From Candidatus Nomurabacteria bacterium (lineage in GTDB: Bacteria > Patescibacteriota > Minisyncoccia > Phycocordibacterales > UBA9973), in the NCBI GenBank assembly GCA_016699085.1, contig CP064958.1:540619-604618 (forward strand): 64,000 bases of DNA, in the 5' to 3' direction. The notes below the pieces were generated by a model. The model had not been told where the DNA came from. It did not search any database and was given only the letters and a program-made list of their open reading frames with translations. The translations under genes and the position numbers were made by a program. Positions 10,706 through 34,989 of this stretch are shown in pieces (position 1 is the first letter of the stretch; every line of letters starts with the position of its first letter).

Positions 10706-11599
10706 ATGAACTCTAACCTCGCCCCAGAAATATTTCGCAAACGCCTTATTATTGAAGGGAAATACACGGTTGAAATAAAAGAGGAGCAATTTGTCACTGA
10801 TTTCCTCTCTGATCTCTCTAGAGAGCTTGGAATGACAATTATTGCTGGCCCATTTATTTCGAGTGCCACAGGTAAGTCGGTACCCCTTCATGATGGTTAT
10901 GAAGGTTCACTTGTGTGGGCAGAATCAGGAGCAAACACATATATTTGGACACGTTCGAAATTCTGCACCGTTGATATTTATTCATGCAAGGAATTTGATT
11001 CAGAAAAAGCAATCAGTTTTATAAAAGAACGATTTGGCATTATAGAATTTTCATATTTTGAATTACCAGACCCTATGGCTTCAAAGCAAGATTCTCGAAT
11101 CGTATTACGACAAAGTGAAAATAAGGGGAACGGTGTTTTTGCCAATAAGGCAATACCTCAAGGAACAGTCGTTTCTTATGTGGATGGACAGATTCACTAC
11201 GCTCAAAAAGAATCTGAAGTATATGTGCATGCTTCAAATCACGCAGTTCCTTTTCATAAATATTTTTATAGAAATGGCTTCAACACAGACGCAGTCAAAT
11301 TAAATCACTCGTGTGAACCAAATTGCTATGTAAAAGATTTATTTTTCGTGACAACCATGCGAGATATACAAGCTGGGGAAGAACTTACATACTGTTATGG
11401 GCTTTTCTGTAACTCTGATTGGGAAAATCCCGAAGGTGTGTGTCATTGTGGTTCTAAAGAATGTCTTGGAAAAATTCTGCCATGGAGAGAGCTCCCTCAA
11501 GACTTTAAGATTAAATACTTTGACTACACCGCTGATTGGATTTTGTTTGATGAAATAAAGAATAAAGGACTTCTTGAAGAACTAAAGAAAAGCATTTAG
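10706..11599 (+). CDS. fusion protein: N-terminal pyruvoyl-type S-adenosylmethionine decarboxylase-like domain (SpeH/AdoMetDC fold) plus C-terminal SET-domain lysine methyltransferase with post-SET Cys cluster
   Basis: SET: GNGVFA, NHSCEPNC, GEELTYCYG, CHCGSKEC. N-terminal: LVWAESGANTYIWTRSKFCTVDIYSCKEFD aligns to the AdoMetDC VVIAESHLTIHTWPE...AVDVFTCGD pattern including the ES self-cleavage site. Confidence 0.75.
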   Translation: MNSNLAPEIFRKRLIIEGKYTVEIKEEQFVTDFLSDLSRELGMTIIAGPFISSATGKSVPLHDGYEGSLVWAESGANTYIWTRSKFCTVDIYSCKEFDSEKAISFIKERFGIIEFSYFELPDPMASKQDSRIVLRQSENKGNGVFANKAIPQGTVVSYVDGQIHYAQKESEVYVHASNHAVPFHKYFYRNGFNTDAVKLNHSCEPNCYVKDLFFVTTMRDIQAGEELTYCYGLFCNSDWENPEGVCHCGSKECLGKILPWRELPQDFKIKYFDYTADWILFDEIKNKGLLEELKKSI

Positions 11600-16247: not shown

Positions 16248-16844
16248 TTAATAGCTGTCGTAGCTTCCTGGGAGCGCTGAAATTTCTTTGATGGGGAAGA
16301 GTCTGAGAAATGCTCTTCCAACGATGAGATCTTTTTTGACACTACCCCAAATACGTGAATCTGAACTTGCCGGTCGATTGTCGCCCATAACATAGTATTC
16401 ATCTTGACCTAATATTTTTGTTTGTGCAATTTGATTGTGCATGTTGTTGACAACATATGGTTCGCTTAGAGTAAAGCCATCAGGGTGTTCACTATTTTTT
16501 ATCACAATCGTAGTATCACCTTTGACCTCAACTGTTTCATTTGGAAGTCCTATTACTCGCTTGATGAAATATTTCGTCGTATCTTTTGGATAATGGAAAA
16601 TAACGACGTCCCCTCGTGCAGGCTCGCCTAAATGGTACGAAAGTTCATCAACGATTAAATATTCGCCATCATGGAATGTTGGTACCATCGATGTACCCGA
16701 AACAATAAATGGTTGTGCCACCCATGTTCGGATCGGTATAACTATCAAAAGTGCAATGATACCAAAACGAACTACATCCCAAATACTTTCTTTTTTTGTT
16801 GGTTGAGGTATCGTCGTAGTCTCAGTACTGTTTTCATTTTGCAT
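16248..16844 (-). CDS. lepB: signal peptidase I
   Basis: SGTSMVPTF and GDNRPASSDSR boxes. Confidence 0.85.
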   Translation of the reverse strand: MQNENSTETTTIPQPTKKESIWDVVRFGIIALLIVIPIRTWVAQPFIVSGTSMVPTFHDGEYLIVDELSYHLGEPARGDVVIFHYPKDTTKYFIKRVIGLPNETVEVKGDTTIVIKNSEHPDGFTLSEPYVVNNMHNQIAQTKILGQDEYYVMGDNRPASSDSRIWGSVKKDLIVGRAFLRLFPIKEISALPGSYDSY

Positions 16845-23493: not shown

Positions 23494-24021
23494 ATGGAAT
23501 TCATTGACCCAGCCTCAACAATAAAATATCTCGAATTAGCTGATACGATGCATGTGGCTGACATGGGATCAGGTTCAGGTCACTACACAATCGCCCTTGC
23601 GAACATCGTCAAAGCGGGCAAGGTGTACTCCTTTGAAGTGCAAAAAGAAGTATTGGAGCGATTGCGCCATGAACTTCAAAGTCTCCATATTACAAATGTT
23701 GAATGCCTATGGGTTAATATGGAGAAAATGAATAGCACGAAACTTGCTGACAATTCACTCGATGCTGCGGTAGTCTCAAATGTGCTTTTCCAGATTGAAG
23801 ATACGTTTACCTTTATGAAAGAAATTGGGCGAATCATTAAGCCTGGGGGTAAAGTACTCTTTATTGACTGGTCGGATTCTTTTGGTGGCATGGGACCAAA
23901 GAGTGATGCAGTCATTACCAAAGACAAAGCGATTGCATTATTTGCCCAAGTCGGTTTTAGTGTCGGCAACGATGTTCCATGCGGATCGCATCATTACGGC
24001 GTACTATTTCGCAAGCAATAA
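23494..24021 (+). CDS. class I SAM-dependent methyltransferase
   Basis: VADMGSGSGHYT motif I and following motifs. Confidence 0.75.
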   Translation: MEFIDPASTIKYLELADTMHVADMGSGSGHYTIALANIVKAGKVYSFEVQKEVLERLRHELQSLHITNVECLWVNMEKMNSTKLADNSLDAAVVSNVLFQIEDTFTFMKEIGRIIKPGGKVLFIDWSDSFGGMGPKSDAVITKDKAIALFAQVGFSVGNDVPCGSHHYGVLFRKQ

Positions 24022-24117: not shown

Positions 24118-25419
24118 ATGAATAATTTTCAAATTGGTCTGTCGATTACTTTTGTTGTTGCTTTTGTTGTTGCTGTAGCAATTTTTGCTGGAATTATTAA
24201 AGTTCCCACAAAGGCAAGCAAGGCTGTTGGTGGTGCTGAGGGTCAAGTCGTCATGTGGGGAACACTCGATGGTGGTGTATTAGCAAAGCCCCTTGAGGAT
24301 TTTAATTTCAAAAAGCCGTATAACGTCAAATACGTCAAGAAAAATATTGAGACTTTGGACCAAGAATTACTCGAAGCACTAGCCTCTGGCAAGGGTCCTG
24401 ATCTTGTCCTCATGCCATCTGAACTTCTCTGGCACTTCAAAGATAAAGCGTACATGATTCCCTACACTGGCTATAGTGAGCGATCGTATCTAGATACCTT
24501 TATACCTGAGGCAAATATGTACCTCTTTAAAGATGGAATATTGGCACTACCGTTTAGGATTGATCCCTTGGTGTTGTATTACAATCGGGATTACTTTACC
24601 AACGCTGGTATAGTCAATTATCCACGAACATGGACTGATGTCATTACTGATGTACCGTTACTTACCAACAAAGATGCCAATGGCAATATTATCCGCAGTG
24701 CTATCGCGCTCGGAACGTTTGGTAATACAACACATGCCAAAGCAATCATGTCAACACTACTTTTCCAAGCTGGGAATCCAATCATGAGTTATGACAGAAA
24801 TGAGGATACAATCAATCCAACATTCAAAGGTAATTTTTCTGGTAAAGCATCAGAAGATGCGCTAGCCTTTTACCAAAGTTTTGCGAACCCAGCTGTTAGT
24901 AATTATTCTTGGAATGCTGTTTTCCCGAATGCACGTGATGCGTTCGTGGCTGGTGATGTTGCGATGTATATAGGATACGCGAGTGAGCTCACATCACTGC
25001 ATGATAAAAATCCAAATCTTAATTTTGACGTCGTCACTATTCCTCAGACAGCGGAAGGTGATACGAAGGCAACCTATGGCAATCTCGAAGGGCTTATGGT
25101 GATGAACTCATCTCGAAATCTTACAACAGCCTATGTTGTAGCGGCGCTTCTTACGGGAAAAGATTTTATGAATACGATTATTCCAAATTTGCTACTACCA
25201 CCAGTGCGTCGTGATTTGTTGGCTGAGCGTCCTACTGATCCGGCGCTTCTTGTGTTCTATACTGCAGCATTGAACGCTCGAGGGTGGATAGATCCAAATA
25301 CCAAAGAAACTGATGCGATTTTTGCAAAAATGCTTCAGGATATTACAACTGGCATAGCAACACCCGCACAAGTGTTGACTGATGCGCAAGCTACATTATC
25401 TTTATATCTAGGTAAATAA
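24118..25419 (+). CDS. membrane-anchored extracellular solute-binding protein (family 1 ABC substrate-binding-protein-like); no cognate permease or ATPase nearby
   Basis: GKGPDLVL...DPLVLYYNRDYF pattern; N-terminal TM anchor. Confidence 0.65.
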   Translation: MNNFQIGLSITFVVAFVVAVAIFAGIIKVPTKASKAVGGAEGQVVMWGTLDGGVLAKPLEDFNFKKPYNVKYVKKNIETLDQELLEALASGKGPDLVLMPSELLWHFKDKAYMIPYTGYSERSYLDTFIPEANMYLFKDGILALPFRIDPLVLYYNRDYFTNAGIVNYPRTWTDVITDVPLLTNKDANGNIIRSAIALGTFGNTTHAKAIMSTLLFQAGNPIMSYDRNEDTINPTFKGNFSGKASEDALAFYQSFANPAVSNYSWNAVFPNARDAFVAGDVAMYIGYASELTSLHDKNPNLNFDVVTIPQTAEGDTKATYGNLEGLMVMNSSRNLTTAYVVAALLTGKDFMNTIIPNLLLPPVRRDLLAERPTDPALLVFYTAALNARGWIDPNTKETDAIFAKMLQDITTGIATPAQVLTDAQATLSLYLGK

Positions 25420-25422
25420 TAT

Positions 25423-25836
25423 ATGAAACTAAAACACCTCCTTGTTACGCTTATGTTCGCTGCTTCTTTCGTTGCAGTGCCAGTTTTTGCAGAACCTACG
25501 TATGATGCTTCGAAAGGTCTCGTGCCGTGTGGGGGCTACAACCCGGACGGGAGCGAGCAGGCAATGTGTACCTTTACTGACATTATGATTTTGATTAATA
25601 CCGTCATTAATTTCTTGATTTTTACATTAGCTCTACCGATAGCGGCCATCGTCTTTGCATGGGCAGGATTTATATTTATTACTGAAGGCTCAAATCAATC
25701 CAAACGCACACAAGCAAAAAATATGATGATAAACGTAGTTATCGGCCTGGTGCTGGCGCTTGCATCATGGCTCATCGTGAAGACGATCTTGGTGTCATTA
25801 GGAGTTAAAATTAATTTCCTTGGTATAGAAATGTAA
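25423..25836 (+). CDS. pilin-like two-TM small protein, paralog 1 (TrbC/VirB2 or T4SS-pilin-like architecture)
   Basis: Signal peptide, Cys pair, TM1, basic loop NQSKRTQAK, TM2 IGLVLALASW. Confidence 0.45.
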   Translation: MKLKHLLVTLMFAASFVAVPVFAEPTYDASKGLVPCGGYNPDGSEQAMCTFTDIMILINTVINFLIFTLALPIAAIVFAWAGFIFITEGSNQSKRTQAKNMMINVVIGLVLALASWLIVKTILVSLGVKINFLGIEM

Positions 25837-25845
25837 GGTATACTT

Positions 25846-26241
25846 ATGTATATGAAAAAACTTCTTAGTTCGATTGTAGTGATTGTAATACCGGTGCTCT
25901 TTGTTATGGGACTTGCGAGTATTGTCTATGCACTCGATGCTACATCAACTGAAAGCATTAGTCTCGATATAAATATTGCAAACCCGCTCAGTTCTGAAAT
26001 TGATACATTGCCAGCATTCGTCGAGGAAATACTTCGTATTGTGCTTAAGATTGGTATACCGATCGTCGTTATATTTATCATTTATGCTGGCTTCCTTTTT
26101 GTGACAGCTACAGGCAATGCAGAGAAACTAAAGACTGCTAAAGCTACATTGCTGTATACACTCGTAGGTTCTGCGATCCTATTAGGTGCGTGGGTTATTG
26201 CGGAAGCTATCCAAGGCACTATTAACCAGCTCGGCGCGTAA
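25846..26241 (+). CDS. pilin-like paralog 2
   Basis: Same architecture; loop NAEKLKTAK; TM2 LVGSAILLGAW. Confidence 0.45.
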   Translation: MYMKKLLSSIVVIVIPVLFVMGLASIVYALDATSTESISLDINIANPLSSEIDTLPAFVEEILRIVLKIGIPIVVIFIIYAGFLFVTATGNAEKLKTAKATLLYTLVGSAILLGAWVIAEAIQGTINQLGA

Positions 26242-26242
26242 T

Positions 26243-26605
26243 ATGCTAGATCTATTTGCTAAAACTGCCTTCGCTGATCTAACTGGCGGCAAAGCTGCTG
26301 TAACAGCTTCGTTTTGTCCCGCTAGTATCAAGACTGTCGCTGACTTTCTTAATTTCTTTACTTGCCTTATTAGCAAATCAGTTATACCGCTTTTGATCGC
26401 AGCCGCACTCATTTGTTTCATCTGGGGTATCCTTACATTTATTTTACATGCTGATGATGAGACCAAGCGCAAAGAAGGCAAGTTGTTTATTATGTGGGGC
26501 ATTATTGGGCTCTTTGTTATGGTCTCGATTTGGGGATTGGTGAATATTTTGGTTAATACGTTTGGTACAGCTAACGTTATTCCACTACTACCGACGAATT
26601 ATTAG
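26243..26605 (+). CDS. pilin-like paralog 3
   Basis: ATG 26243 lies right after the stop of paralog 2; loop DDETKRKEGK; TM2 IIGLFVMVSIWGLV. Confidence 0.45.
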   Translation: MLDLFAKTAFADLTGGKAAVTASFCPASIKTVADFLNFFTCLISKSVIPLLIAAALICFIWGILTFILHADDETKRKEGKLFIMWGIIGLFVMVSIWGLVNILVNTFGTANVIPLLPTNY

Positions 26606-26705
26606 TTGTGTTTTAAGCATGCTCTAGTATACTTAATCCATATACAGCTTATCTCATCCTGGTCGGAGAGAAGGCAATTATTAATAAAATTTAGGAACTG
26701 TTTTT

Positions 26706-27008
26706 ATGACAATTACATCAGTCTTACTTAAAATTGGAGGTATATTAAATGTTATCATTCCAATATTGATCACCTTAGGTGTTATCTACTTTATCTGGGG
26801 TGTTATCAAATACGTTACAGCGAAAGATGAAGAGCAGCAGAAAGAAGGCCGCACAACCATAGTTTCTGGTATCGTCGGACTCTTTGTTATCGTAGCGATT
26901 TGGGGTCTTGTTGGCATTCTTCAGAATACACTTTTTGGCGGAGCAACTAATAACCAGCTCAACACGAACCAAATTCCTTGTATTCCAGGAACAGGTGGTA
27001 ACTGCTAA
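26706..27008 (+). CDS. pilin-like paralog 4
   Basis: Loop DEEQQKEGR; TM2 IVGLFVIVAIWGLV. Confidence 0.45.
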   Translation: MTITSVLLKIGGILNVIIPILITLGVIYFIWGVIKYVTAKDEEQQKEGRTTIVSGIVGLFVIVAIWGLVGILQNTLFGGATNNQLNTNQIPCIPGTGGNC

Positions 27009-27009
27009 T

Positions 27010-27327
27010 ATGTTTCTTGATCTCATCAAGAGGGCATATGCAGCGGGTCCAATCGAGAGTTCTGTTGATTCGCTCCTAGCGAAAATCAATAAAGTCATAT
27101 TGAATCCACTCATCATTCTCATGTTCGCTGTTGCGCTGGTCTACTTCATGTATGGTGTCGTTGAATTTCTCGCGAACTCAACCAGTGAAGATGCTAGGAA
27201 AACAGGCAAGGCTCACATGCTCTACGGAGTTATCGGTATGTTCATTATGATTGCGGTGTATGCGATTATGAATATTATCGTGAACACACTCGGAGTCACG
27301 AATATCAATATTCCAAATCCACGTTAG
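27010..27327 (+). CDS. pilin-like paralog 5
   Basis: ATG 27010; loop SEDARKTGK; TM2 VIGMFIMIAVYAIM. Confidence 0.45.
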   Translation: MFLDLIKRAYAAGPIESSVDSLLAKINKVILNPLIILMFAVALVYFMYGVVEFLANSTSEDARKTGKAHMLYGVIGMFIMIAVYAIMNIIVNTLGVTNINIPNPR

Positions 27328-27344
27328 ATATTGCATGGTATAGA

Positions 27345-27385
27345 AATAAAAAAAGCCGCTCTCAGAAATGAGGGGCGGCTTTTGC
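27345..27385. terminator. bidirectional intrinsic terminator (aaaaaaagccgctc...gaggggcggcttttg)
   Basis: GC-rich stem flanked by an A-run and a T-run. Confidence 0.8.
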
Positions 27386-27402: not shown

Positions 27403-27918
27403 TTAATGGGGGAATAATGGTGTCCATGTACCTGGACTTACACGAAGTTTAACCGTGTTGTTGTCTGCGCTATCCTCAAAAGGAGTCACGAAGCCAAGTA
27501 CATATGCACCAGCAGCTCCTGCAGCTTTAGCTTGGTCATATGCCATTTGCATTGCCTGAATTGGCTGCGATCCATCATCACTCAACCTTACTGTAAATAC
27601 CGGCCATGGATTATTTGAAATTGAAGACTGTAATAATCCAAGCACGCTGGCATTTAACGGCCACACATTTACGTTCCACGTATCTCCCCAAGGGCGTGGT
27701 GCGCTTGTTGAAATATATACATAAAATTGTGCTGGTTGATTAATACTGAATGCACAGGAGATCTTTCCTGTATAGTCATGAGTATAGAACCACTCACCGT
27801 TTGGTGAAGTGTTCGGGGCTACCTCTCCACCTATTCCAAACAGCTCGCTGCCTTTCGTGCAGCTTGCAAATGATAATGTAACAAAAACAAAAGTAAGAAT
27901 TTTTATTGAATTTTTCAT
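27403..27918 (-). CDS. secreted lipoprotein (hypothetical)
   Basis: MKNSIKILTFVFVTLSFASC signal plus lipobox. Confidence 0.5.
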   Translation of the reverse strand: MKNSIKILTFVFVTLSFASCTKGSELFGIGGEVAPNTSPNGEWFYTHDYTGKISCAFSINQPAQFYVYISTSAPRPWGDTWNVNVWPLNASVLGLLQSSISNNPWPVFTVRLSDDGSQPIQAMQMAYDQAKAAGAAGAYVLGFVTPFEDSADNNTVKLRVSPGTWTPLFPH

Positions 27919-28118
27919 AGTGTATGGTTTTTTTGAAAGGTTTAGAATGAATGATTCTAGGCACAAAGATGTGCTCACAATCATTCACTCAAACCAAAAC
28001 CAAACTACGAAGTAATGAACCTTTCTGATATAAGTATAGCATATACAACTATAAATGTCAAGTAGCTGTGATATCTAAAATGCTTTATAAAATAAGGCTT
28101 ATTTGCTAGGATAGGAGA

Positions 28119-28805
28119 GTGAAATTAACTATTCTCATCCCTTGCTTCAATGAAGAAAGAACTATCGCAACAGTTCTCGAAAGGGTAAAAAAGGCTCCGA
28201 TTGGGGATGTAACAAAAGAAATTATCGTAATTGATGATGGTTCGACAGATAAGACCAGAGATATTCTTTTGAGCTATCAAGATGATGCAGTAATCCAAGT
28301 CGTACATCATGCGGTAAATGAAGGCAAAGGCAAATCAATACGTACAGGACTTGAGATCGCAACAGGGGATATTGTTTTGATCCAAGATGCAGATCTTGAG
28401 TATGATCCCAACGAGTATATGAAACTTTTGGAACCGATGCTTCATACTAACGCACCTGTTGTATATGGTTCGAGATATATGACCCCTCTATCAAAAAATC
28501 TTCGACCTTGGGGAACAGGATTTATTACAGAGGTAACTAATGTGTTGTATGGCTCAAAACTTACTGATGAACCGACATGCTACAAATTATTTACAAGAGA
28601 AGTAATCAAAAATATTACATTTGAAACATCTGGTTTTGCGTTTTGTCCAGAAGTAACAGCAAAAATCCTAAGAAAGCATATATCTATCGTTGAAGTACCG
28701 ATAACATATCATCGCCGTACTAAAAGTGAAGGCAAGAAGTTATCGTGGTTTCGAGATGGTTTTGGTGCATTGTGGACACTTATAAAGTATCGAATTGTTG
28801 ACTAA
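28119..28805 (+). CDS. family-2 glycosyltransferase (polyprenyl-phosphate sugar synthase, Dpm1/GtrB/ArnC-like)
   Basis: ILIPCFNEE...VIDDGSTD...DADL...motifs; GTG start. Confidence 0.8.
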   Translation: MKLTILIPCFNEERTIATVLERVKKAPIGDVTKEIIVIDDGSTDKTRDILLSYQDDAVIQVVHHAVNEGKGKSIRTGLEIATGDIVLIQDADLEYDPNEYMKLLEPMLHTNAPVVYGSRYMTPLSKNLRPWGTGFITEVTNVLYGSKLTDEPTCYKLFTREVIKNITFETSGFAFCPEVTAKILRKHISIVEVPITYHRRTKSEGKKLSWFRDGFGALWTLIKYRIVD

Positions 28806-28936: not shown

Positions 28937-30601
28937 TTATTTAAGGCTATACACTCGGACATTGGGGAATGTCGCGTCTTCGAATACTTTAGTAAATCTG
29001 GGGTCATTTTCCAAAAGCTTTTGAAATGTTGGCTTGTTTTTATTTTGTAAGAAATAACGCGTATCAATAAAGACAAATTGGGTCTTTATTGTATCTTGTA
29101 GGAATGCGTATGCATCTTCGCCTTGGCTGCATGTTGGTTCACCACAGATAAGCTCACCAGAGTTTAGGTGGAGCATTTTATAATATAGTGTCTCATCATG
29201 CATATAGGTAAATGTCGGATCAAGGCCGCTGGTGTACTGAAGTGTTGGGTTAAAGAAAAAGAGTCCCGTAAACATACCAAATCGTGGTGTGTAGATGATT
29301 GATCCTGGGATTACATGAGTTTGCAGGTATTCGCTCGCACCCTTGTACATAAGGTAGCTCGGTGCCTTTCTCTCTGTACGGATCATGCTGGTGGTTTGAG
29401 CGACAAATATAAGTGCCATAAAAAGGAATGCCAGTATTCTAAACTTTTTTGCATGGTCGATGAACATTCTGTATAAGACACGTAGTAAGTCTTGGAATTT
29501 ATGATGTATAGCAGTGACTTCGTATATATCCTGTTTAAGGATCGGTATATACAAAGTGATAGTTGTCAGTACATATAGTAATGCAAAAGGAAATGCGTAT
29601 TCAATCGTGCGTTCAACAACAAAAAATCCAATAACGAACGAACTAGCCAGGCAAAATAAAAACCACGTTGTAAAAGATACTACTCGTTTGCCGCGAGTGA
29701 AAAGTATGTAGAGTGTTGTCAGGAAGCATATAGCAAACAATGCTACCCAATATTCGTGGGCAATATTGCCTAGTGCATTGCCAAGTTCTGCTGGTTGACC
29801 TGGGGTATCGGTAAATATCGTTCTATAAATCGTGAGTATATGCACCAGGTAGCCATTGTACAGGTACTGGAGCGAATCTGGTCGGGTAGCTATACCGACG
29901 GCAAGTGCTGCAAAAGAGATAAGTAGTGGTTTTATTGATACAAGAAAAGATTGCTTGCCATGATAGAAAAGTGACGCAAGGAAATAAATTCCTGGTGGGA
30001 TAAGAATTAAAAATGAGGCAGAATAAAAGAATGGAAATAGAAAAATGGATAGAAATAACCAGGTGTATCTCTGCCTTACTAAGCAGGCAAAGACGATAAG
30101 CATAAAGATAATCGAAATCGTATGCGGCCGCTCTAATAAAATACGGAAGCTAAAAATATGTGAAACAGCAAAAAGGAGAATCGTCCCTATGAGTGCAGTT
30201 GGGATTTTGCTGAGTCTGCTATTGATTAAAAACAGACATCTGGAAATCACTAAGTAAAACGTCAGGAATAGTAATCCGTTAATGAGTGAATGATATATTT
30301 TATCTCCAATTATGAGCGCCTGGTAGTTATCTCCTTGGAAAAGGAATGTAAAAGGTGCCATGGTGACGTGATAGAGCGCATAGAGATTAACAGGCTTATC
30401 GGAAAGGGTAGAGAATACTGGCATCAGTATCGTTTCGTTACTCCAGATACTTGCAGAACGCATCGCATGATAGTACGGATCATCGGCAGATGATAGTGAG
30501 AAGGATTGGAGGCGAATACAGAGTGTAAAGAGAAAGAAAAAGAGAAATACAGCTAGCGGAAAGAACTTTTGATATTTCGTAAGGTTATGAGATATAGCCA
30601 T
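28937..30601 (-). CDS. large polytopic membrane protein, putative GT-C-fold glycosyltransferase (ArnT/PMT/YfhO-like)
   Basis: About 12 TM segments plus a C-terminal soluble domain, next to a GT2 gene; ATG 30601 preferred over the TTG track start. Confidence 0.45.
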   Translation of the reverse strand: MAISHNLTKYQKFFPLAVFLFFFLFTLCIRLQSFSLSSADDPYYHAMRSASIWSNETILMPVFSTLSDKPVNLYALYHVTMAPFTFLFQGDNYQALIIGDKIYHSLINGLLFLTFYLVISRCLFLINSRLSKIPTALIGTILLFAVSHIFSFRILLERPHTISIIFMLIVFACLVRQRYTWLFLSIFLFPFFYSASFLILIPPGIYFLASLFYHGKQSFLVSIKPLLISFAALAVGIATRPDSLQYLYNGYLVHILTIYRTIFTDTPGQPAELGNALGNIAHEYWVALFAICFLTTLYILFTRGKRVVSFTTWFLFCLASSFVIGFFVVERTIEYAFPFALLYVLTTITLYIPILKQDIYEVTAIHHKFQDLLRVLYRMFIDHAKKFRILAFLFMALIFVAQTTSMIRTERKAPSYLMYKGASEYLQTHVIPGSIIYTPRFGMFTGLFFFNPTLQYTSGLDPTFTYMHDETLYYKMLHLNSGELICGEPTCSQGEDAYAFLQDTIKTQFVFIDTRYFLQNKNKPTFQKLLENDPRFTKVFEDATFPNVRVYSLK

Positions 30602-30782
30602 ATCCCATAATAGCCCAAAAACCTTTATTTCCAATCTATTATTGACAAATAGGTATATTTATGATATTATGTTGTCTATATAGGTACTTTGACAAAGGTT
30701 GCATGTAATCAGTTTTGTCTGTCTCAAAAAGTAACAGAGATTGATAAACCTGATTACATTTCTAACCTAAAATAAAAAATAC

Positions 30783-33152: not shown

Positions 33153-33491
33153 TTATCGGTCTTTGTCACCAAGTAGAAGCTCATCAATCTTCTGCCGGTT
33201 GATTTCACCACCATCAATCATGGCATCCAAATAGGGGATGGAATGAGTTCGCATATGTTCCATAAGGTATGTTCGAAGTTCGCCTAAGTTGCGCTTGATA
33301 AAATCAAGCACTTGTTCGCGTTTAGAATCAGGAAGAACTGAAAGTAGTATTGTCGCACTTTTTTCATCCTGTGAGACGATCACTCTCGTTACTGAAACCA
33401 ACGCATCTCTGTTACTGATAGTTTCAATAAATGTTGCTGCAAGTTCTCTAATAAGTTCTTCTATTCGATCGTGTCGGTGTGGATTATTCAT
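33153..33491 (-). CDS. rbfA: ribosome-binding factor A
   Basis: RIEELIRELAATFI...VSVTRV pattern. Confidence 0.85.
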   Translation of the reverse strand: MNNPHRHDRIEELIRELAATFIETISNRDALVSVTRVIVSQDEKSATILLSVLPDSKREQVLDFIKRNLGELRTYLMEHMRTHSIPYLDAMIDGGEINRQKIDELLLGDKDR

Positions 33492-34989
33492 AGATAGTTA
33501 CAAAGGTTTCAAGTATGTCGCCAGCTGAGATTTCAACTTTTGATTCAATCAAAATGCCGCACTCGACGCCTTCGATTACTTCTTTTACTTTTGCTCTGCC
33601 TTGCTCGATGCCGACAATATTACCTTTGCCGATTTCGAAATCACGGCGAAGAATTCTTACTGTTCCGCCATCGACAATTTTACCTTCGGTAACCTTACCG
33701 CCAACGACTTGTTTTTCTTTTGTCTTACTGAAGCATTTAATAATTTTAAGTCGTCCAGTGACCGAGAGTACCTCCTTGCGGGGTTTACGTTTCTCCGCTT
33801 CTTCCTTTAGGAAATCATTCATATGGTAAATAACATCAAATAATTTGATGGTGACGCCAGTTTTCTCATTCAAGTCACGTGCGCGTGGATCTAGTTTCGT
33901 ATTAAAGCCAAGAATTATTGTGGTTGGATCAGAGCCCGCGAGTCTAATATCGTTCTCGCCGATTGATCCGACTGTACTATCAAGAATTTTAAATTTCACT
34001 TCTTCGAGTTCGAGTTTTTTCAATTCTTTAACTACTGCTTCACTTGCACCTTGGACATCTGTTTTAATAATTATCGGAATAGTGACTGTGCCTACGGGAA
34101 CACTATAGGCATCAGGTACAATCTTTTGATTGTTGGCGCAAAAATTTTGTACGCATGCATCAGCTTCTTTTTTAGTAGCAAAGGTCGCAAAGACACTACC
34201 AGCAGGTGGTAGCTCAGAAAATCCTGCAATAGCAATAGGAGATGATACTGTTGCACTATCGATGCTCTTGCCCGTATAGTCTTCGAAAATTCGAACAGGC
34301 GCACTTGCTTTGTCTGCAACAATAAAGCTTCCGCGTGTTACGGTGCCATTTTTAATGATGAGAGTAGATGATATGCCGCGCTTGCGATCAAGATGAGACT
34401 CGATAATCACACCAACGCCTGGGAGGGTTGGATCGGCACGCAATTCTTTTACTTCTGCAACGAGGAGTATGGTATCGAGAAGTTCAGGTATGCCATCGCC
34501 TGTTTTAGCTGATATAGGAACGACTGGTACATCACCGCCATAGCCTTCGAGGTAAATACCTTTTTCCGCTAAATCAATTTTTACTTTTTCAATATTGGCA
34601 CCTGGCTTATCGATTTTATTAATAGCGACGATGAGTGACAATTTACTTTCGGAAATAGTTTGCCAAGCTTCTACTGTTTGTGCTTTGACAGAGTCTTCTG
34701 CTGAGACGACGAGTATGGCAATGTCTGCGGCGATCGCACCACGTTCGCGCATTTTGGTGAATGCTTCATGACCTGGTGTATCTAGAAAGGTAATTTTTTT
34801 ATCTTTGCCTTCATGCTTCTGGATAACTTCGTAGGCAGATAAATGTTGAGTAATGCCTCCGGCTTCACCTGCGGTACTGTTCGACTTCCGAATAAAATCA
34901 AGCAAGGTTGATTTGCCGTGGTCGATATGTCCCATGACAACGACAACAGGGGGACGCTCTATGCTTGTAGGTGTAGTTGCATTTTTCAT
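33484..34989 (-). CDS. infB: translation initiation factor IF-2 (short form)
   Basis: G domain GHIDHGKSTLLD, DTPGHEAF, NKIDK. Confidence 0.9.
   Translation of the reverse strand: MKNATTPTSIERPPVVVVMGHIDHGKSTLLDFIRKSNSTAGEAGGITQHLSAYEVIQKHEGKDKKITFLDTPGHEAFTKMRERGAIAADIAILVVSAEDSVKAQTVEAWQTISESKLSLIVAINKIDKPGANIEKVKIDLAEKGIYLEGYGGDVPVVPISAKTGDGIPELLDTILLVAEVKELRADPTLPGVGVIIESHLDRKRGISSTLIIKNGTVTRGSFIVADKASAPVRIFEDYTGKSIDSATVSSPIAIAGFSELPPAGSVFATFATKKEADACVQNFCANNQKIVPDAYSVPVGTVTIPIIIKTDVQGASEAVVKELKKLELEEVKFKILDSTVGSIGENDIRLAGSDPTTIILGFNTKLDPRARDLNEKTGVTIKLFDVIYHMNDFLKEEAEKRKPRKEVLSVTGRLKIIKCFSKTKEKQVVGGKVTEGKIVDGGTVRILRRDFEIGKGNIVGIEQGRAKVKEVIEGVECGILIESKVEISAGDILETFVTIYE

What the first reader, a model, noticed from the sequence alone, without database searches (positions are those of the whole stretch)
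25423..27327. Tandem array of five paralogous pilin-like two-TM genes behind an orphan solute-binding protein
Five consecutive, tightly packed genes of 100-137 aa share one plan. Each has an N-terminal hydrophobic leader, a first TM helix, a short basic loop (NQSKRTQAK, NAEKLKTAK, DDETKRKEGK, DEEQQKEGR, SEDARKTGK) and a second TM helix with an (I/V)GLFV(I/M)V(A/S)IWGLV core. This matches conjugative TrbC/VirB2-type (T4SS) pilin architecture, but no T4SS ATPases are nearby. The array is apparently co-transcribed with a membrane-anchored family-1 solute-binding protein that has no permease or ATPase partner. This may be a lineage-specific surface-filament or host-interaction module.
Basis: partly seen in the sequence, partly recalled or inferred. 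Interest (0 to 1): 0.6.

Follow-up and report, generated by a model that had tools for sequence, protein, structure and literature searches.

The report
Binding-protein-linked operon of five VirB2-like pilins
The five small genes are real members of the known pilin-like family that ultrasmall Patescibacteria use with their type IV secretion system. The new point is that they form an ancient, fixed-order set inherited together with a sugar-binding protein and a methyltransferase, which hints at what this poorly understood surface apparatus handles.

Summary
The five genes exist at the stated coordinates. All five best-match Pfam PF18895 (T4SS_pilin, VirB2-like); four score above the curated cut-off. 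They are under strong purifying selection (dN/dS 0-0.07 against a close relative). Tandem VirB2-like pilin arrays in Patescibacteria are already published, so the kind is known.

- Only genes 1-2 have a signal peptide.
- The strict GLFV..IWGLV motif occurs only in genes 3-4.
- The array is not specific to this lineage.

Comparison with about 90 related loci adds four points:
- The five genes are five ancient orthologue groups kept in the order 1-2-3-4-5. They are not recent duplicates.
- The array directly follows a membrane-anchored MalE-like binding protein in all 35 loci with enough downstream sequence.
- A small SAM methyltransferase sits upstream, usually overlapping or within about 10 nt, and stays attached where gyrA linkage is lost.
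- A conserved promoter and an ATTATTA-GGTCG box lie between genes 3 and 4.

No VirB4, ABC permease or ATPase lies in the 64-kb window or beside any related locus.

Best reading: a heteromeric T4SS-type surface filament genetically coupled to a glycan-binding protein, driven by a T4SS encoded elsewhere.

The parts
23494..24021 (+). Small class I SAM-dependent methyltransferase (175 aa), probable first gene of the module
   Evidence: Pfam Methyltransf_31/11/25 and UbiE-like hits. Only generic NCBIfam hits; the nearest solved structure is the uncharacterised 3dh0. It lies upstream of the binding protein in 46 of 47 loci. The gap to the binding-protein gene has a median of 9 nt, with many -1/-4/-8 overlaps, although it is 96 nt in this window. 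It stays attached in L091, where gyrA is replaced by other genes. Substrate unknown.
24118..25419 (+). Membrane-anchored family-1 (MalE-like) solute-binding protein, 433 aa
   Evidence: SBP_bac_1 E 6e-21 and SBP_bac_8 E 6e-20. AlphaFold2 model has pLDDT 91.4, with a TM helix at residues 3-23, a disordered linker at 28-36, then a two-lobe binding-protein fold. Foldseek best PDB matches are maltodextrin, cyclodextrin, acarbose and manno-oligosaccharide binding proteins, TM 0.65-0.72 (query-normalised) at about 17% identity. There are 876 relatives, all named as Patescibacteria groups. The TM anchor is as conserved as the globular part, 0.54 versus 0.57, while the linker is 0.28.
25423..25836 (+). 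Pilin-like gene 1 (137 aa): signal peptide, short disulfide-type ectodomain (C36, C49), then the two-helix hairpin
   Evidence: PF18895 41.6 bits; TrbC 22.7 bits, below cut-off. Orthologue group g1. In other loci, g1 orthologues carry Fn3-like or TSP_1 modules on the N-terminal side of the hairpin, or an SLT lytic transglycosylase domain on the C-terminal side. dN/dS 0.036.
25846..26241 (+). Pilin-like gene 2 (131 aa): signal peptide, invariant NP(L) motif, then the hairpin
   Evidence: PF18895 28.4 bits. Orthologue group g2, 48-73% identical across the genomes compared. The invariant residues N46 and P47 come from the 40-sequence alignment. The AlphaFold2 model has helices 3-30, 55-87 and 92-130, pLDDT 76.
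26243..26605 (+). Pilin-like gene 3 (120 aa): no signal peptide here, about 37-residue N-terminal tail, then the hairpin
   Evidence: PF18895 40.5 bits. Only two hydrophobic segments. Its orthologues in L003 and L004 have signal peptides, and in many loci the gene is a fused double pilin. dN/dS 0.028.
26606..26705 (+). Conserved spacer between genes 3 and 4, with a promoter-like site and a cis element
   Evidence: In this window: -35 TTGTGT at 26606-26611, -10 TATACT at 26628-26633, GGTCG at 26661-26665, ATTATTA at 26677-26683. This is the only long gap in the array: median 108 nt against 9-12 nt for the other junctions in 38 five-gene arrays. GGTC[GT] is present in 27 of 39 spacers, downstream of a TATAAT-like box where one is found. 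TTATTA-N0-8-GGTCG occurs almost only at this position across the 84 loci then held. No conserved RNA structure. No Rfam family.
26706..27008 (+). Pilin-like gene 4 (100 aa): bare hairpin with a C-terminal Cys-containing tail
   Evidence: PF18895 38.0 bits. 49% identical to gene 3. 16 synonymous and 0 non-synonymous differences from L001. An identical protein is named as from Candidatus Nomurabacteria by NCBI. Most orthologues elsewhere have a signal peptide.
27010..27327 (+). Pilin-like gene 5 (105 aa): leaderless, Cys-free, with a conserved short N-terminal peptide
   Evidence: PF18895 23.8 bits, just below the cut-off. Orthologue group g5. Across 36 arrays, 28 show only two hydrophobic segments, 35 have no Cys, and the N-terminal motif M(D/N)LFxxK(I/V)AYA recurs; the window has MFLDLIKRAYAA. 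dN/dS 0.063.
27351..27383 (.). Terminator-type GC hairpin between the array and the convergent gene at 27403-27984
   Evidence: Stem GCCGCTCTC / GAGGGGCGGC, flanked by an A-run and a T-run. Minimum free energy -22 kcal/mol, z = -3.6, with 0 of 200 shuffles folding as well. Gene content downstream of gene 5 differs between loci.

Best explanation
The region is one instance of a deeply conserved Patescibacteria operon. Relatives are labelled Nomurabacteria, Parcubacteria or Paceibacterota. The operon consists of a methyltransferase, a membrane-anchored MalE-like binding protein and five different VirB2-like (PF18895) pilin subunits.

Proposed mechanism:
- Each pilin inserts as a helical hairpin with both ends outside and the Lys/Arg-rich loop in the cytoplasm. 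Genes 1-2 would use a cleavable signal peptide. Genes 3-5 would insert without one.
- A VirB4-type ATPase of the monoderm-type T4SS, encoded elsewhere in the genome, extracts the subunits and polymerises them into a heteromeric surface filament or channel.
- Gene 1 is the subunit that displays extracellular modules.
- Genes 4-5 have their own promoter and probably supply the bulk subunits.
- The co-expressed binding protein sits at the membrane through a sequence-conserved TM helix and binds an oligosaccharide-type ligand. It serves either adhesion to host glycans or capture of host-derived glycans at the apparatus.

Shown here: family membership, hairpin plan, gene order, purifying selection, operon cohesion, the fold of the binding protein, and the domain fusions. 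Inferred: filament formation, dependence on a T4SS, ligand class, and the role of the methyltransferase.
For: - Family: PF18895 is the best hit for all five genes. Of 71 relatives, 70 hit PF18895 and 24 hit TrbC/VirB2. All five hit NF045849, a pilin-like conjugal transfer protein, below cut-off.
- Plan: hydropathy shows a two-helix hairpin with a basic loop. The AlphaFold2 model of gene 2 is a helical hairpin after a signal helix.
- Ancient paralogues: each gene's best match in three distant genomes is the gene at the same position. Of 40 arrays with five or more genes, 27 read 1-2-3-4-5, and the rest differ only by g3/g4-type copies.
- Selection: dN/dS is 0-0.07.
- Cohesion: all 35 binding-protein loci with at least 3.5 kb downstream carry the array immediately after it, and 27 have exactly five genes. 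The methyltransferase-to-binding-protein gap has a median of 9 nt. The trio stays together in L091, where gyrA is absent. Downstream content varies.
- Surface or T4SS link: g1 orthologues are fused to Fn3-like, TSP_1 or SLT (VirB1-type lytic transglycosylase) domains.
- Literature: pilin arrays lie inside the essential T4SS cluster of Southlakia (PMC10633639). VirB4 is present in 2,417 of 3,035 Patescibacteria assemblies (PMC12102498).
- Binding protein: confident MalE-like model and matches, with a conserved TM anchor.
Against: - No VirB4, VirB6, VirB3 or VirB8 gene is in the 64-kb window.
- No Walker-A ORF of 450 aa or more lies within 7-10 kb of any of the 86 related loci then held.
- The link to classical pilins exists only at profile level. 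The window proteins are below the TrbC cut-off. A 71-sequence profile finds no solved pilin. tblastn against 72,556 plasmids finds nothing. Fold search of the hairpin is uninformative.
- The whole neighbourhood, from the S1 protein to IF-2, is syntenic in this group. Adjacency of the binding protein could therefore partly reflect low rearrangement rather than function.
- Three loci have the binding protein without pilins downstream: L026, L027 and L071.
Confidence: 0.6

Rival explanations
1. The pilins belong to the T4SS, but the binding protein and methyltransferase are unrelated neighbours. They are kept next to the array only because gene order in these reduced genomes is very stable. The binding protein would serve an ABC importer encoded elsewhere.
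For: GyrA, the Lactamase_B_3 gene, the S1 protein gene and RbfA/IF-2 are also conserved neighbours: GyrA is upstream in 47 of 47 loci. Three loci have the binding protein without pilins directly downstream. The binding protein has an ordinary MalE-like fold.
Against: Gaps are typical of co-translation: 3 nt in the window, and about 22 nt as the middle of the 62 ranked SBP-to-pilin gaps. The methyltransferase-to-binding-protein gap has a median of 9 nt, against 120 nt for gyrA-to-methyltransferase. The trio survives loss of gyrA linkage in L091, whereas content after gene 5 varies freely. The TM anchor is conserved in sequence, which is unusual for a passive anchor. No permease lies in the window.
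Confidence: 0.22
2. The module works without a T4SS. The binding protein and the five hairpin proteins (10-12 TM helices in total) form a self-contained membrane complex. This could be a binding-protein-dependent uptake channel or a surface 'bindosome'.
For: The operon is never next to virB4 in any of the 86 loci held at that point. The subunit set and order are fixed, as expected for a stoichiometric complex. The operon begins with a binding protein. Sulfolobus offers a precedent in which sugar-binding proteins depend on small pilin-like proteins (PMC3047682).
Against: The TM helices are purely hydrophobic, with no polar or charged residues suggestive of a solute path. The family is embedded in T4SS clusters in other Patescibacteria (PMC10633639, PMC12102498). 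One g1 orthologue carries a VirB1-like SLT domain and others carry adhesion-type modules, which fits an external filament better than a permease. No energising component is present.
Confidence: 0.12
3. The array is a set of interchangeable pilin variants used for antigenic or host-range variation, as proposed for Bartonella Trw and Anaplasma VirB2 paralogues.
For: Copies within the array are divergent at 19-49% identity. This is the explanation offered for Patescibacteria arrays in PMC12102498.
Against: Each copy has a one-to-one orthologue at the same position in distant genomes. dN/dS between close relatives is 0-0.07, no higher than for flanking genes. Copy number is five in 27 of 35 loci. 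The copies differ systematically in leader, Cys content and fused domains.
Confidence: 0.04
4. The small two-TM proteins are holins, bacteriocin or immunity proteins, or another unrelated small membrane-protein family.
For: Small size and two TM helices are shared with many such families.
Against: No holin or bacteriocin family was hit in Pfam or PHROGs. No relatives were found on viral contigs. The chromosomal housekeeping context is conserved across a class.
Confidence: 0.02

Closest known systems
VirB2-like pilin arrays of Patescibacteria T4SS (Southlakia epibionticum ML1 cluster SEML1_0006-0019; Nanosynbacter lyticus TM7x 'array of small signal-peptide proteins'; 441 arrays in PMC12102498)
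   Same: Same Pfam family (PF18895). Several divergent pilin genes in tandem, with a mean within-array identity of about 25% reported and 19-49% here. Chromosomal location, and no relaxase nearby.
   Different: The published arrays were described inside or next to the virB4 cluster. In PMC12102498 the Pfam hits sampled from Table S3 and the array ring of Fig. S9 are restricted to the virB4 neighbourhood. This array is detached from virB4. It is welded to a methyltransferase and a MalE-like binding protein, usually lies beside gyrA, and consists of five fixed orthologue groups. Three of the five subunits here lack signal peptides.
TrbC/VirB2 conjugative pilins of Gram-negative T4SS (RP4 TrbC, Agrobacterium VirB2; Pfam PF04956)
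   Same: A leader followed by a two-helix hairpin with a short basic loop. There are profile-level cross-hits: 24 of 71 relatives, best E 8e-7.
   Different: The window proteins score below the TrbC cut-off. No detectable similarity to solved pilins or to any plasmid gene. Classical systems have one pilin gene inside the T4SS operon together with VirB5, whereas this is a five-gene set in a monoderm.
Tandem trwL (VirB2) copies of Bartonella Trw, and VirB2 paralogues of Anaplasma
   Same: Multiple VirB2-type genes side by side.
   Different: According to PMC12102498, those copies are thought to support immune evasion or varied host-surface binding. Here the copies are ancient, position-specific and under purifying selection.
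Mbov_0395 / MMCAP2_0565 family pilin-like conjugal transfer protein of Mycoplasma ICEs (NCBIfam NF045849)
   Same: All five window proteins match it over the whole hairpin, E 1e-6 to 5e-9. It belongs to a monoderm conjugation system, the class to which the Patescibacteria VirB4 is related (PMC12102498).
   Different: Scores of 27-36 bits are below the 40-bit cut-off. It is a single gene within a mobile element, not a five-gene chromosomal set.
Bindosome of Sulfolobus solfataricus (Bas system; PMC3047682)
   Same: An analogy only: surface sugar-binding proteins are functionally and genetically tied to small pilin-like proteins.
   Different: The bindosome uses type IV pilin-type (class III signal peptide) proteins and its own ATPase. 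The binding proteins there still feed ABC transporters. There is no homology to PF18895.

Membership tests
PF18895 T4SS_pilin (Patescibacteria VirB2-like pilins) | Sequence match to the family model above the curated cut-off (26.6 bits) | tested here: met
   Genes 1-4 score 41.6, 28.4, 40.5 and 38.0 bits. Gene 5 scores 23.8 bits, just below, but its orthologue group is hit in other loci. 70 of 71 relatives match.
PF18895 T4SS_pilin (Patescibacteria VirB2-like pilins) | Two hydrophobic helices joined by a short basic loop | tested here: met
   Hydropathy for all five. AlphaFold2 hairpin H55-87 / H92-130 for gene 2.
PF18895 T4SS_pilin (Patescibacteria VirB2-like pilins) | N-terminal Sec signal peptide (reported for the TM7x array, bioRxiv 10.1101/258137) | tested here: inconclusive
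   Present in genes 1-2 and absent in genes 3-5. Gene 5 is leaderless in 28 of 36 arrays.
PF18895 T4SS_pilin (Patescibacteria VirB2-like pilins) | Genetic linkage to VirB4 and other T4SS genes | tested here: not met
   None in the 64-kb window or within 7-10 kb of the 86 related loci then held. The rest of the genome could not be searched.
PF18895 T4SS_pilin (Patescibacteria VirB2-like pilins) | Assembly into an extracellular filament | not testable with these tools
   Indirect only: extracellular-type modules and an SLT domain are fused to g1 orthologues.
TrbC/VirB2 conjugative pilins (PF04956) | Match to the TrbC model above its cut-off (27.9 bits) | tested here: not met
   The best window score is 22.7 bits, for gene 1. 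24 of 71 relatives reach E <= 0.01, best 8e-7.
TrbC/VirB2 conjugative pilins (PF04956) | Detectable similarity to experimentally characterised pilins | tested here: not met
   The profile against all PDB sequences gave no pilin at E <= 10. Foldseek gave no significant match. tblastn against plasmids gave none.
TrbC/VirB2 conjugative pilins (PF04956) | C-terminal processing or cyclisation by a TraF-type peptidase | not tested
   The only signal-peptidase-type gene seen in the window is an S26 peptidase at 16248-16844.
Family-1 ABC-transporter solute-binding proteins (for gene 24118-25419) | Two-lobe periplasmic-binding-protein fold and a match to the family model | tested here: met
   SBP_bac_1 76 bits against a cut-off of 26. 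pLDDT 91.4. Foldseek E about 1e-22 to maltodextrin-binding proteins.
Family-1 ABC-transporter solute-binding proteins (for gene 24118-25419) | Cognate permease and ATPase genes in the same operon | tested here: not met
   None in the window or in the annotated contexts.
Variable VirB2 tandem arrays (Bartonella Trw type) | Recent lineage-specific duplication and diversifying selection | tested here: not met
   Positional orthology. Pairwise dN/dS 0-0.07. This is a whole-gene pairwise test only.
Holins or small bacteriocin-type membrane proteins | Match to a holin or bacteriocin family, or a phage context | tested here: not met
   No such Pfam or PHROGs hits. No relatives on viral contigs.

The most novel reading that the evidence does not exclude
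The methyltransferase, binding protein and five pilins form a dedicated 'binding-protein-armed' T4SS filament. This would be a heteromeric VirB2-type structure that carries or docks a maltodextrin-type receptor through its conserved TM helix. These biosynthetically poor bacteria would use it to recognise host cell-wall glycans and channel them inward. The T4SS would then act as a nutrient-import device, a bacterial counterpart of the archaeal bindosome. The methyltransferase would modify the charged pilin loop that would line the lumen.
Probability: 0.15. Interest if true: 0.85.

Novelty: new variant of a known kind. Interest (0 to 1): 0.5.

Why it matters
The T4SS and its pilin array are essential for the epibiotic life of the one Patescibacterium tested genetically (Southlakia, PMC10633639). 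A recent review can only speculate that the pilus is a conduit for uptake from the host (PMC12857230).

A class-wide operon that ties five non-redundant pilin subunits to a glycan-type binding protein and a methyltransferase gives that idea concrete, testable parts:
- a candidate ligand receptor;
- a candidate modification enzyme;
- a defined subunit set;
- a candidate regulatory site.

It also argues against the published 'antigenic variation' explanation, at least for this type of array.

Tried and rejected
- Exact look-up of the window's binding protein found nothing.
- A profile of 71 pilin cores against all PDB sequences returned only chance hits, such as cytochrome oxidase at E 0.4.
- Foldseek of the gene 2 model against the PDB gave nothing below E 2.7. 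A helical hairpin is too simple to be diagnostic.
- tblastn of genes 1 and 2 against 72,556 plasmids, and a scan of viral contigs, found no matches.
- The promoter and terminator pattern scan was no better than shuffles, and it missed both the spacer promoter and the final hairpin.
- RNAalifold on the spacer found no conserved structure, so the ATTATTA-GGTCG box is treated as a sequence element.
- Supplementary tables of PMC12102498 did not contain the assemblies I had fetched.
- Searches with genes 2 and 4 reached only orthologues in the same operon (70 and 37 hits). I therefore could not show with my own data that these orthologue groups also occur inside virB4 clusters.
- Rejected readings: holin or bacteriocin, a recent duplication array, and a type IV prepilin-type signal on the binding protein (no Gly at -1 and no Glu at +5).
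Full report
**What is in the sequence.** Between 25423 and 27327 the + strand carries five short genes. They lie at 25423-25836 (137 aa), 25846-26241 (131 aa), 26243-26605 (120 aa), 26706-27008 (100 aa) and 27010-27327 (105 aa). Genes 3 and 5 begin at an ATG one base after the preceding TAA. Public gene calls on near-identical contigs use the same starts. Gene 1 starts 3 nt after the stop of a 433-aa gene at 24118-25419. The only long gap, 100 nt, lies between genes 3 and 4. A strong hairpin at about 27351-27383 (-22 kcal/mol, z -3.6) separates gene 5 from a convergent gene.

**Are the genes real, and what family are they?** All five best-match Pfam PF18895 'T4SS_pilin', at 41.6, 28.4, 40.5, 38.0 and 23.8 bits against a cut-off of 26.6. 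Gene 1 also scores 22.7 bits on TrbC/VirB2, below that model's cut-off. All five give sub-threshold hits (E 1e-6 to 5e-9) to NCBIfam NF045849, the pilin-like conjugal transfer protein of Mycoplasma ICEs. No holin or bacteriocin family appears in Pfam or PHROGs.

A MAG contig with a 97% identical binding protein (L001) has the same five genes. Synonymous divergence is 0.26-0.69, and dN/dS is 0.036, 0.068, 0.028, 0 and 0.063. The corresponding values are 0.032 for the binding protein and 0.010 for GyrA. The genes are therefore coding and under purifying selection.

**Corrections to the observation.**
- Hydropathy shows a signal peptide plus two helices in genes 1 and 2, with cleavage-type sites VFA|E and VYA|L.
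- Genes 3, 4 and 5 have only two hydrophobic segments, and no upstream start would add a leader.
- The quoted basic loops are all there.
- The strict GLFV..IWGLV motif occurs only in genes 3 and 4.
- Identities among the five are 19-49%, highest for genes 3 and 4.
- The AlphaFold2 model of gene 2 (pLDDT 76) is a signal helix followed by a helical hairpin.

**What was already known.**
- Arrays of four to six small VirB2-like proteins were noted in Saccharibacteria in 2018 (bioRxiv 10.1101/258137).
- A series of pilin genes inside the T4SS cluster is essential in Southlakia (PMC10633639).
- A phylum-wide survey reports 441 arrays of 2-11 pilin genes with about 25% mean identity, and suggests host-range or antigenic variation (PMC12102498).
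- A 2025 review speculates that the pilus is a conduit for uptake from the host (PMC12857230).

The kind is therefore known. None of these papers mentions a binding protein or gyrA next to an array. In PMC12102498 the Pfam PF18895 hits I sampled in Table S3, and the array ring of Fig. S9, concern the virB4 neighbourhood.

**The upstream gene.** The 433-aa protein matches SBP_bac_1 and SBP_bac_8. Its AlphaFold2 model is confident (pLDDT 91.4). It has a TM helix at residues 3-23, a disordered linker at 28-36 and a two-lobe binding-protein fold. The best solved matches are maltodextrin, cyclodextrin, acarbose and manno-oligosaccharide binding proteins, with TM 0.65-0.72 (query-normalised) and about 17% identity.

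It has 876 relatives at E < 1e-10. Every named one comes from a Patescibacteria group. The TM anchor, with consensus M-x-N-F-Q-I...F...F-S-G, is as conserved as the globular domain (0.54 against 0.57), while the linker is not (0.28). That is unusual for a passive anchor. The anchor does not look like a prepilin signal.

**Comparative genomics: the main new result.**
- Contexts of three distant relatives of the binding protein (40-54% identity, on contigs of 387-705 kb) all show the same order. That order is the Lactamase_B_3 gene, a small ORF, GyrA, the methyltransferase, the binding protein and five PF18895 genes.
- A metagenome scan found 592 relatives, of which 80 loci were kept.
- Using a pilin HMM built from 20 sequences, all 35 loci with at least 3.5 kb downstream of the binding protein carry pilin genes immediately after it. 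Twenty-seven have five genes, four have six, one has seven and three have fewer.
- Best-hit analysis shows that each gene matches the gene at the same position in other genomes. Groups g1, g2 and g5 score about twice the runner-up.
- Of 40 arrays with five or more genes, 27 classify as 1-2-3-4-5. The rest differ only by extra or ambiguous g3/g4-type copies.
- Searches starting from genes 2 and 4 returned only proteins from this same operon.

The five genes are thus five old, non-redundant subunits. They are not a recent or variable expansion.

**Where the unit begins and ends.** GyrA is upstream in 47 of 47 loci and the methyltransferase in 46 of 47. Conserved synteny alone is therefore weak evidence of function. 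The spacing is more informative:
- The methyltransferase-to-binding-protein gap has a median of 9 nt, with many 1-8 nt overlaps.
- The gyrA-to-methyltransferase gap has a median of 120 nt and ranges up to 2.5 kb.
- In L091 gyrA is replaced by unrelated genes, yet the methyltransferase, binding protein and six pilins remain contiguous with 5- and 9-nt gaps.
- After gene 5 the content differs from locus to locus.

The cohesive unit is therefore methyltransferase plus binding protein plus pilins. The methyltransferase is a generic class I SAM enzyme with no specific assignment. Three loci are exceptions that lack pilins after the binding protein: L026, L027 and L071.

**Differences between the subunits** (hydrophobic-segment, Cys and N-terminal-motif counts from 36 five-gene arrays).
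- g1 usually has two Cys before the hairpin. In several loci it carries long extracellular modules: Fn3-like repeats (L063, L003, L066) or a TSP_1 domain (L060). In L048 it carries a C-terminal SLT lytic transglycosylase domain (E 1e-15). SLT is the domain type of VirB1, so this fusion ties the array to T4SS-type cell-wall biology. It also shows that the termini face outward.
- g3 is often a fused double pilin.
- g5 is leaderless in 28 of 36 arrays and Cys-free in 35 of 36. It starts with a conserved M(D/N)LFxxK(I/V)AYA peptide.

**A conserved internal control region.** The g3-g4 spacer is the only long one, with a median of 108 nt against 9-12 nt for the other junctions. It contains a promoter-like site, often TGnTATAAT. 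In the window this is TTGTGT-16-TATACT at 26606-26633. It also carries a GGTC(G/T) motif in 27 of 39 spacers, usually flanked by ATTATTA repeats. The combination TTATTA-N0-8-GGTCG occurs almost only at this position in the 84 loci then held. No conserved RNA fold was found, and no Rfam family matches. Genes 4-5 probably have their own regulated promoter.

**What is missing.** The window is ordinary chromosome. It holds GyrA, ClpB, IF-2, TopA, RelA/SpoT, the seryl- and histidyl-tRNA synthetases, ParB, DnaX, DprA and nine tRNAs. It has no VirB4, VirB6, VirB3 or VirB8 gene and no ABC permease or ATPase. No large Walker-A ORF lies within 7-10 kb of any of the 86 related loci then held.

Similarity to classical pilins exists only at profile level. 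Twenty-four of 71 relatives hit TrbC, best E 8e-7. A profile search of the PDB, a fold search and tblastn against 72,556 plasmids found nothing. VirB4 occurs in 80% of Patescibacteria assemblies (PMC12102498), so one is likely elsewhere in this genome. I could not check this.

**Most likely mechanism.** The operon supplies five distinct VirB2-type subunits, and a binding protein, to a monoderm-type T4SS encoded elsewhere.
- The hairpins insert with a cytoplasmic basic loop and external termini.
- They are then extracted and polymerised into a heteromeric filament or channel.
- g1 displays variable outward-facing modules. g4-g5 are separately promoted.
- The binding protein, held by a conserved TM helix, binds an oligosaccharide-type ligand for adhesion or capture.

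Family, plan, gene order, selection, cohesion, fold and fusions are shown. Filament formation, T4SS dependence, ligand class and the methyltransferase's target are inferred. My confidence is about 0.6.

Rivals:
- mere synteny of the binding protein (0.22);
- a T4SS-independent membrane complex (0.12);
- variation arrays (0.04);
- holin-type proteins (0.02).

**Verdict.** The pilin interpretation is right, but the array is neither lineage-specific nor a simple paralogue expansion. The array type is published. The coupled methyltransferase and binding protein, the fixed five-subunit order, the location away from virB4 and the internal control box were not found in the searchable literature.

I rate it a new variant of a known kind, with interest 0.5.

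On the organism: the nearest MAG is titled Candidatus Saccharibacteria. NCBI names the identical gene 4 protein as Candidatus Nomurabacteria, and all relatives are Parcubacteria-type.

Noticed in passing
window 26606-26705; the same position in about 27 related loci, e.g. L025:9839-9944 and L003:13535-13649: Conserved promoter-like site plus an ATTATTA-GGTCG-TTATTATTAG box in the spacer before pilin gene 4. In several loci a GC hairpin (CCGCC...GGCGG) follows. No Rfam match and no conserved fold. It may be an operator or a 5'-UTR sequence element.
   Followed up: partly
window 23494-24021: A 175-aa generic SAM methyltransferase is translationally coupled to the binding-protein gene in most relatives. 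It stays with the operon when gyrA linkage is lost (L091). Its substrate is unknown. The cytoplasmic Lys/Arg/Glu-rich pilin loop is one candidate.
   Followed up: partly
L048:1257-2381; L063:8309-10186; L060:8296-9537; L003:11292-12404: Orthologues of pilin gene 1 are fused to an SLT lytic transglycosylase (VirB1-like), Fn3-like repeats or a thrombospondin type 1 domain.
   Followed up: yes
L003:12821-13534 and about 14 other loci: Pilin gene 3 is often a single polypeptide with two PF18895 domains (four TM helices).
   Followed up: partly
window 28119-28805 (+) and 28937-30634 (-): A family-2 glycosyltransferase lies next to a 565-aa polytopic membrane protein with no family match. The pair is also present after the array in L001, L002, L087 and L088. 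It may be a surface glycosylation module. Any relation to the pilins or binding protein is unknown.
   Followed up: no
window 27403-27984 (-): Convergent ORF with no family match. An internal Met starts a lipoprotein-type signal (MKNSIKILTFVFVTLSFASC). It shares the terminator hairpin with the array. Its conservation is limited to close relatives.
   Followed up: no
window 10706-11599 (+): A 297-aa protein combines an S-adenosylmethionine decarboxylase-type domain with a SET domain. This is an unusual pairing.
   Followed up: no
window 33484-34989 (-): IF-2 is only 501 aa. ORFs of similar length (489-510 aa) were called in the related loci with annotated contexts.
   Followed up: no
L018:5191-8290: Two tandem paralogues of the binding protein with a pilin-type gene between them, and a rearranged, shorter array.
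   Followed up: no
L027:2452-2949; L018:10140-10602: Small gene pairs that look by eye like HicB/HicA-type toxin-antitoxin genes. In L027 they sit directly after the binding protein, where the pilins are missing. In L018 they follow a shortened array.
   Followed up: no
L001 (CAZLWF010000008.1) versus P0191: Conflict in taxonomic labels. The nearest MAG is titled 'uncultured Candidatus Saccharibacteria', while the identical gene 4 protein is named Candidatus Nomurabacteria, and all relatives of the operon are Parcubacteria/Paceibacterota-type.
   Followed up: partly
PMC12102498 Table S3, e.g. GCA_000990275.1 genes 786-788: T_virB2 and FATA_PrgF profile hits lie side by side, far from virB4. 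These may be the same array type. If so, the pilin-like proteins may be related to PrgF of monoderm conjugation systems.
   Followed up: no
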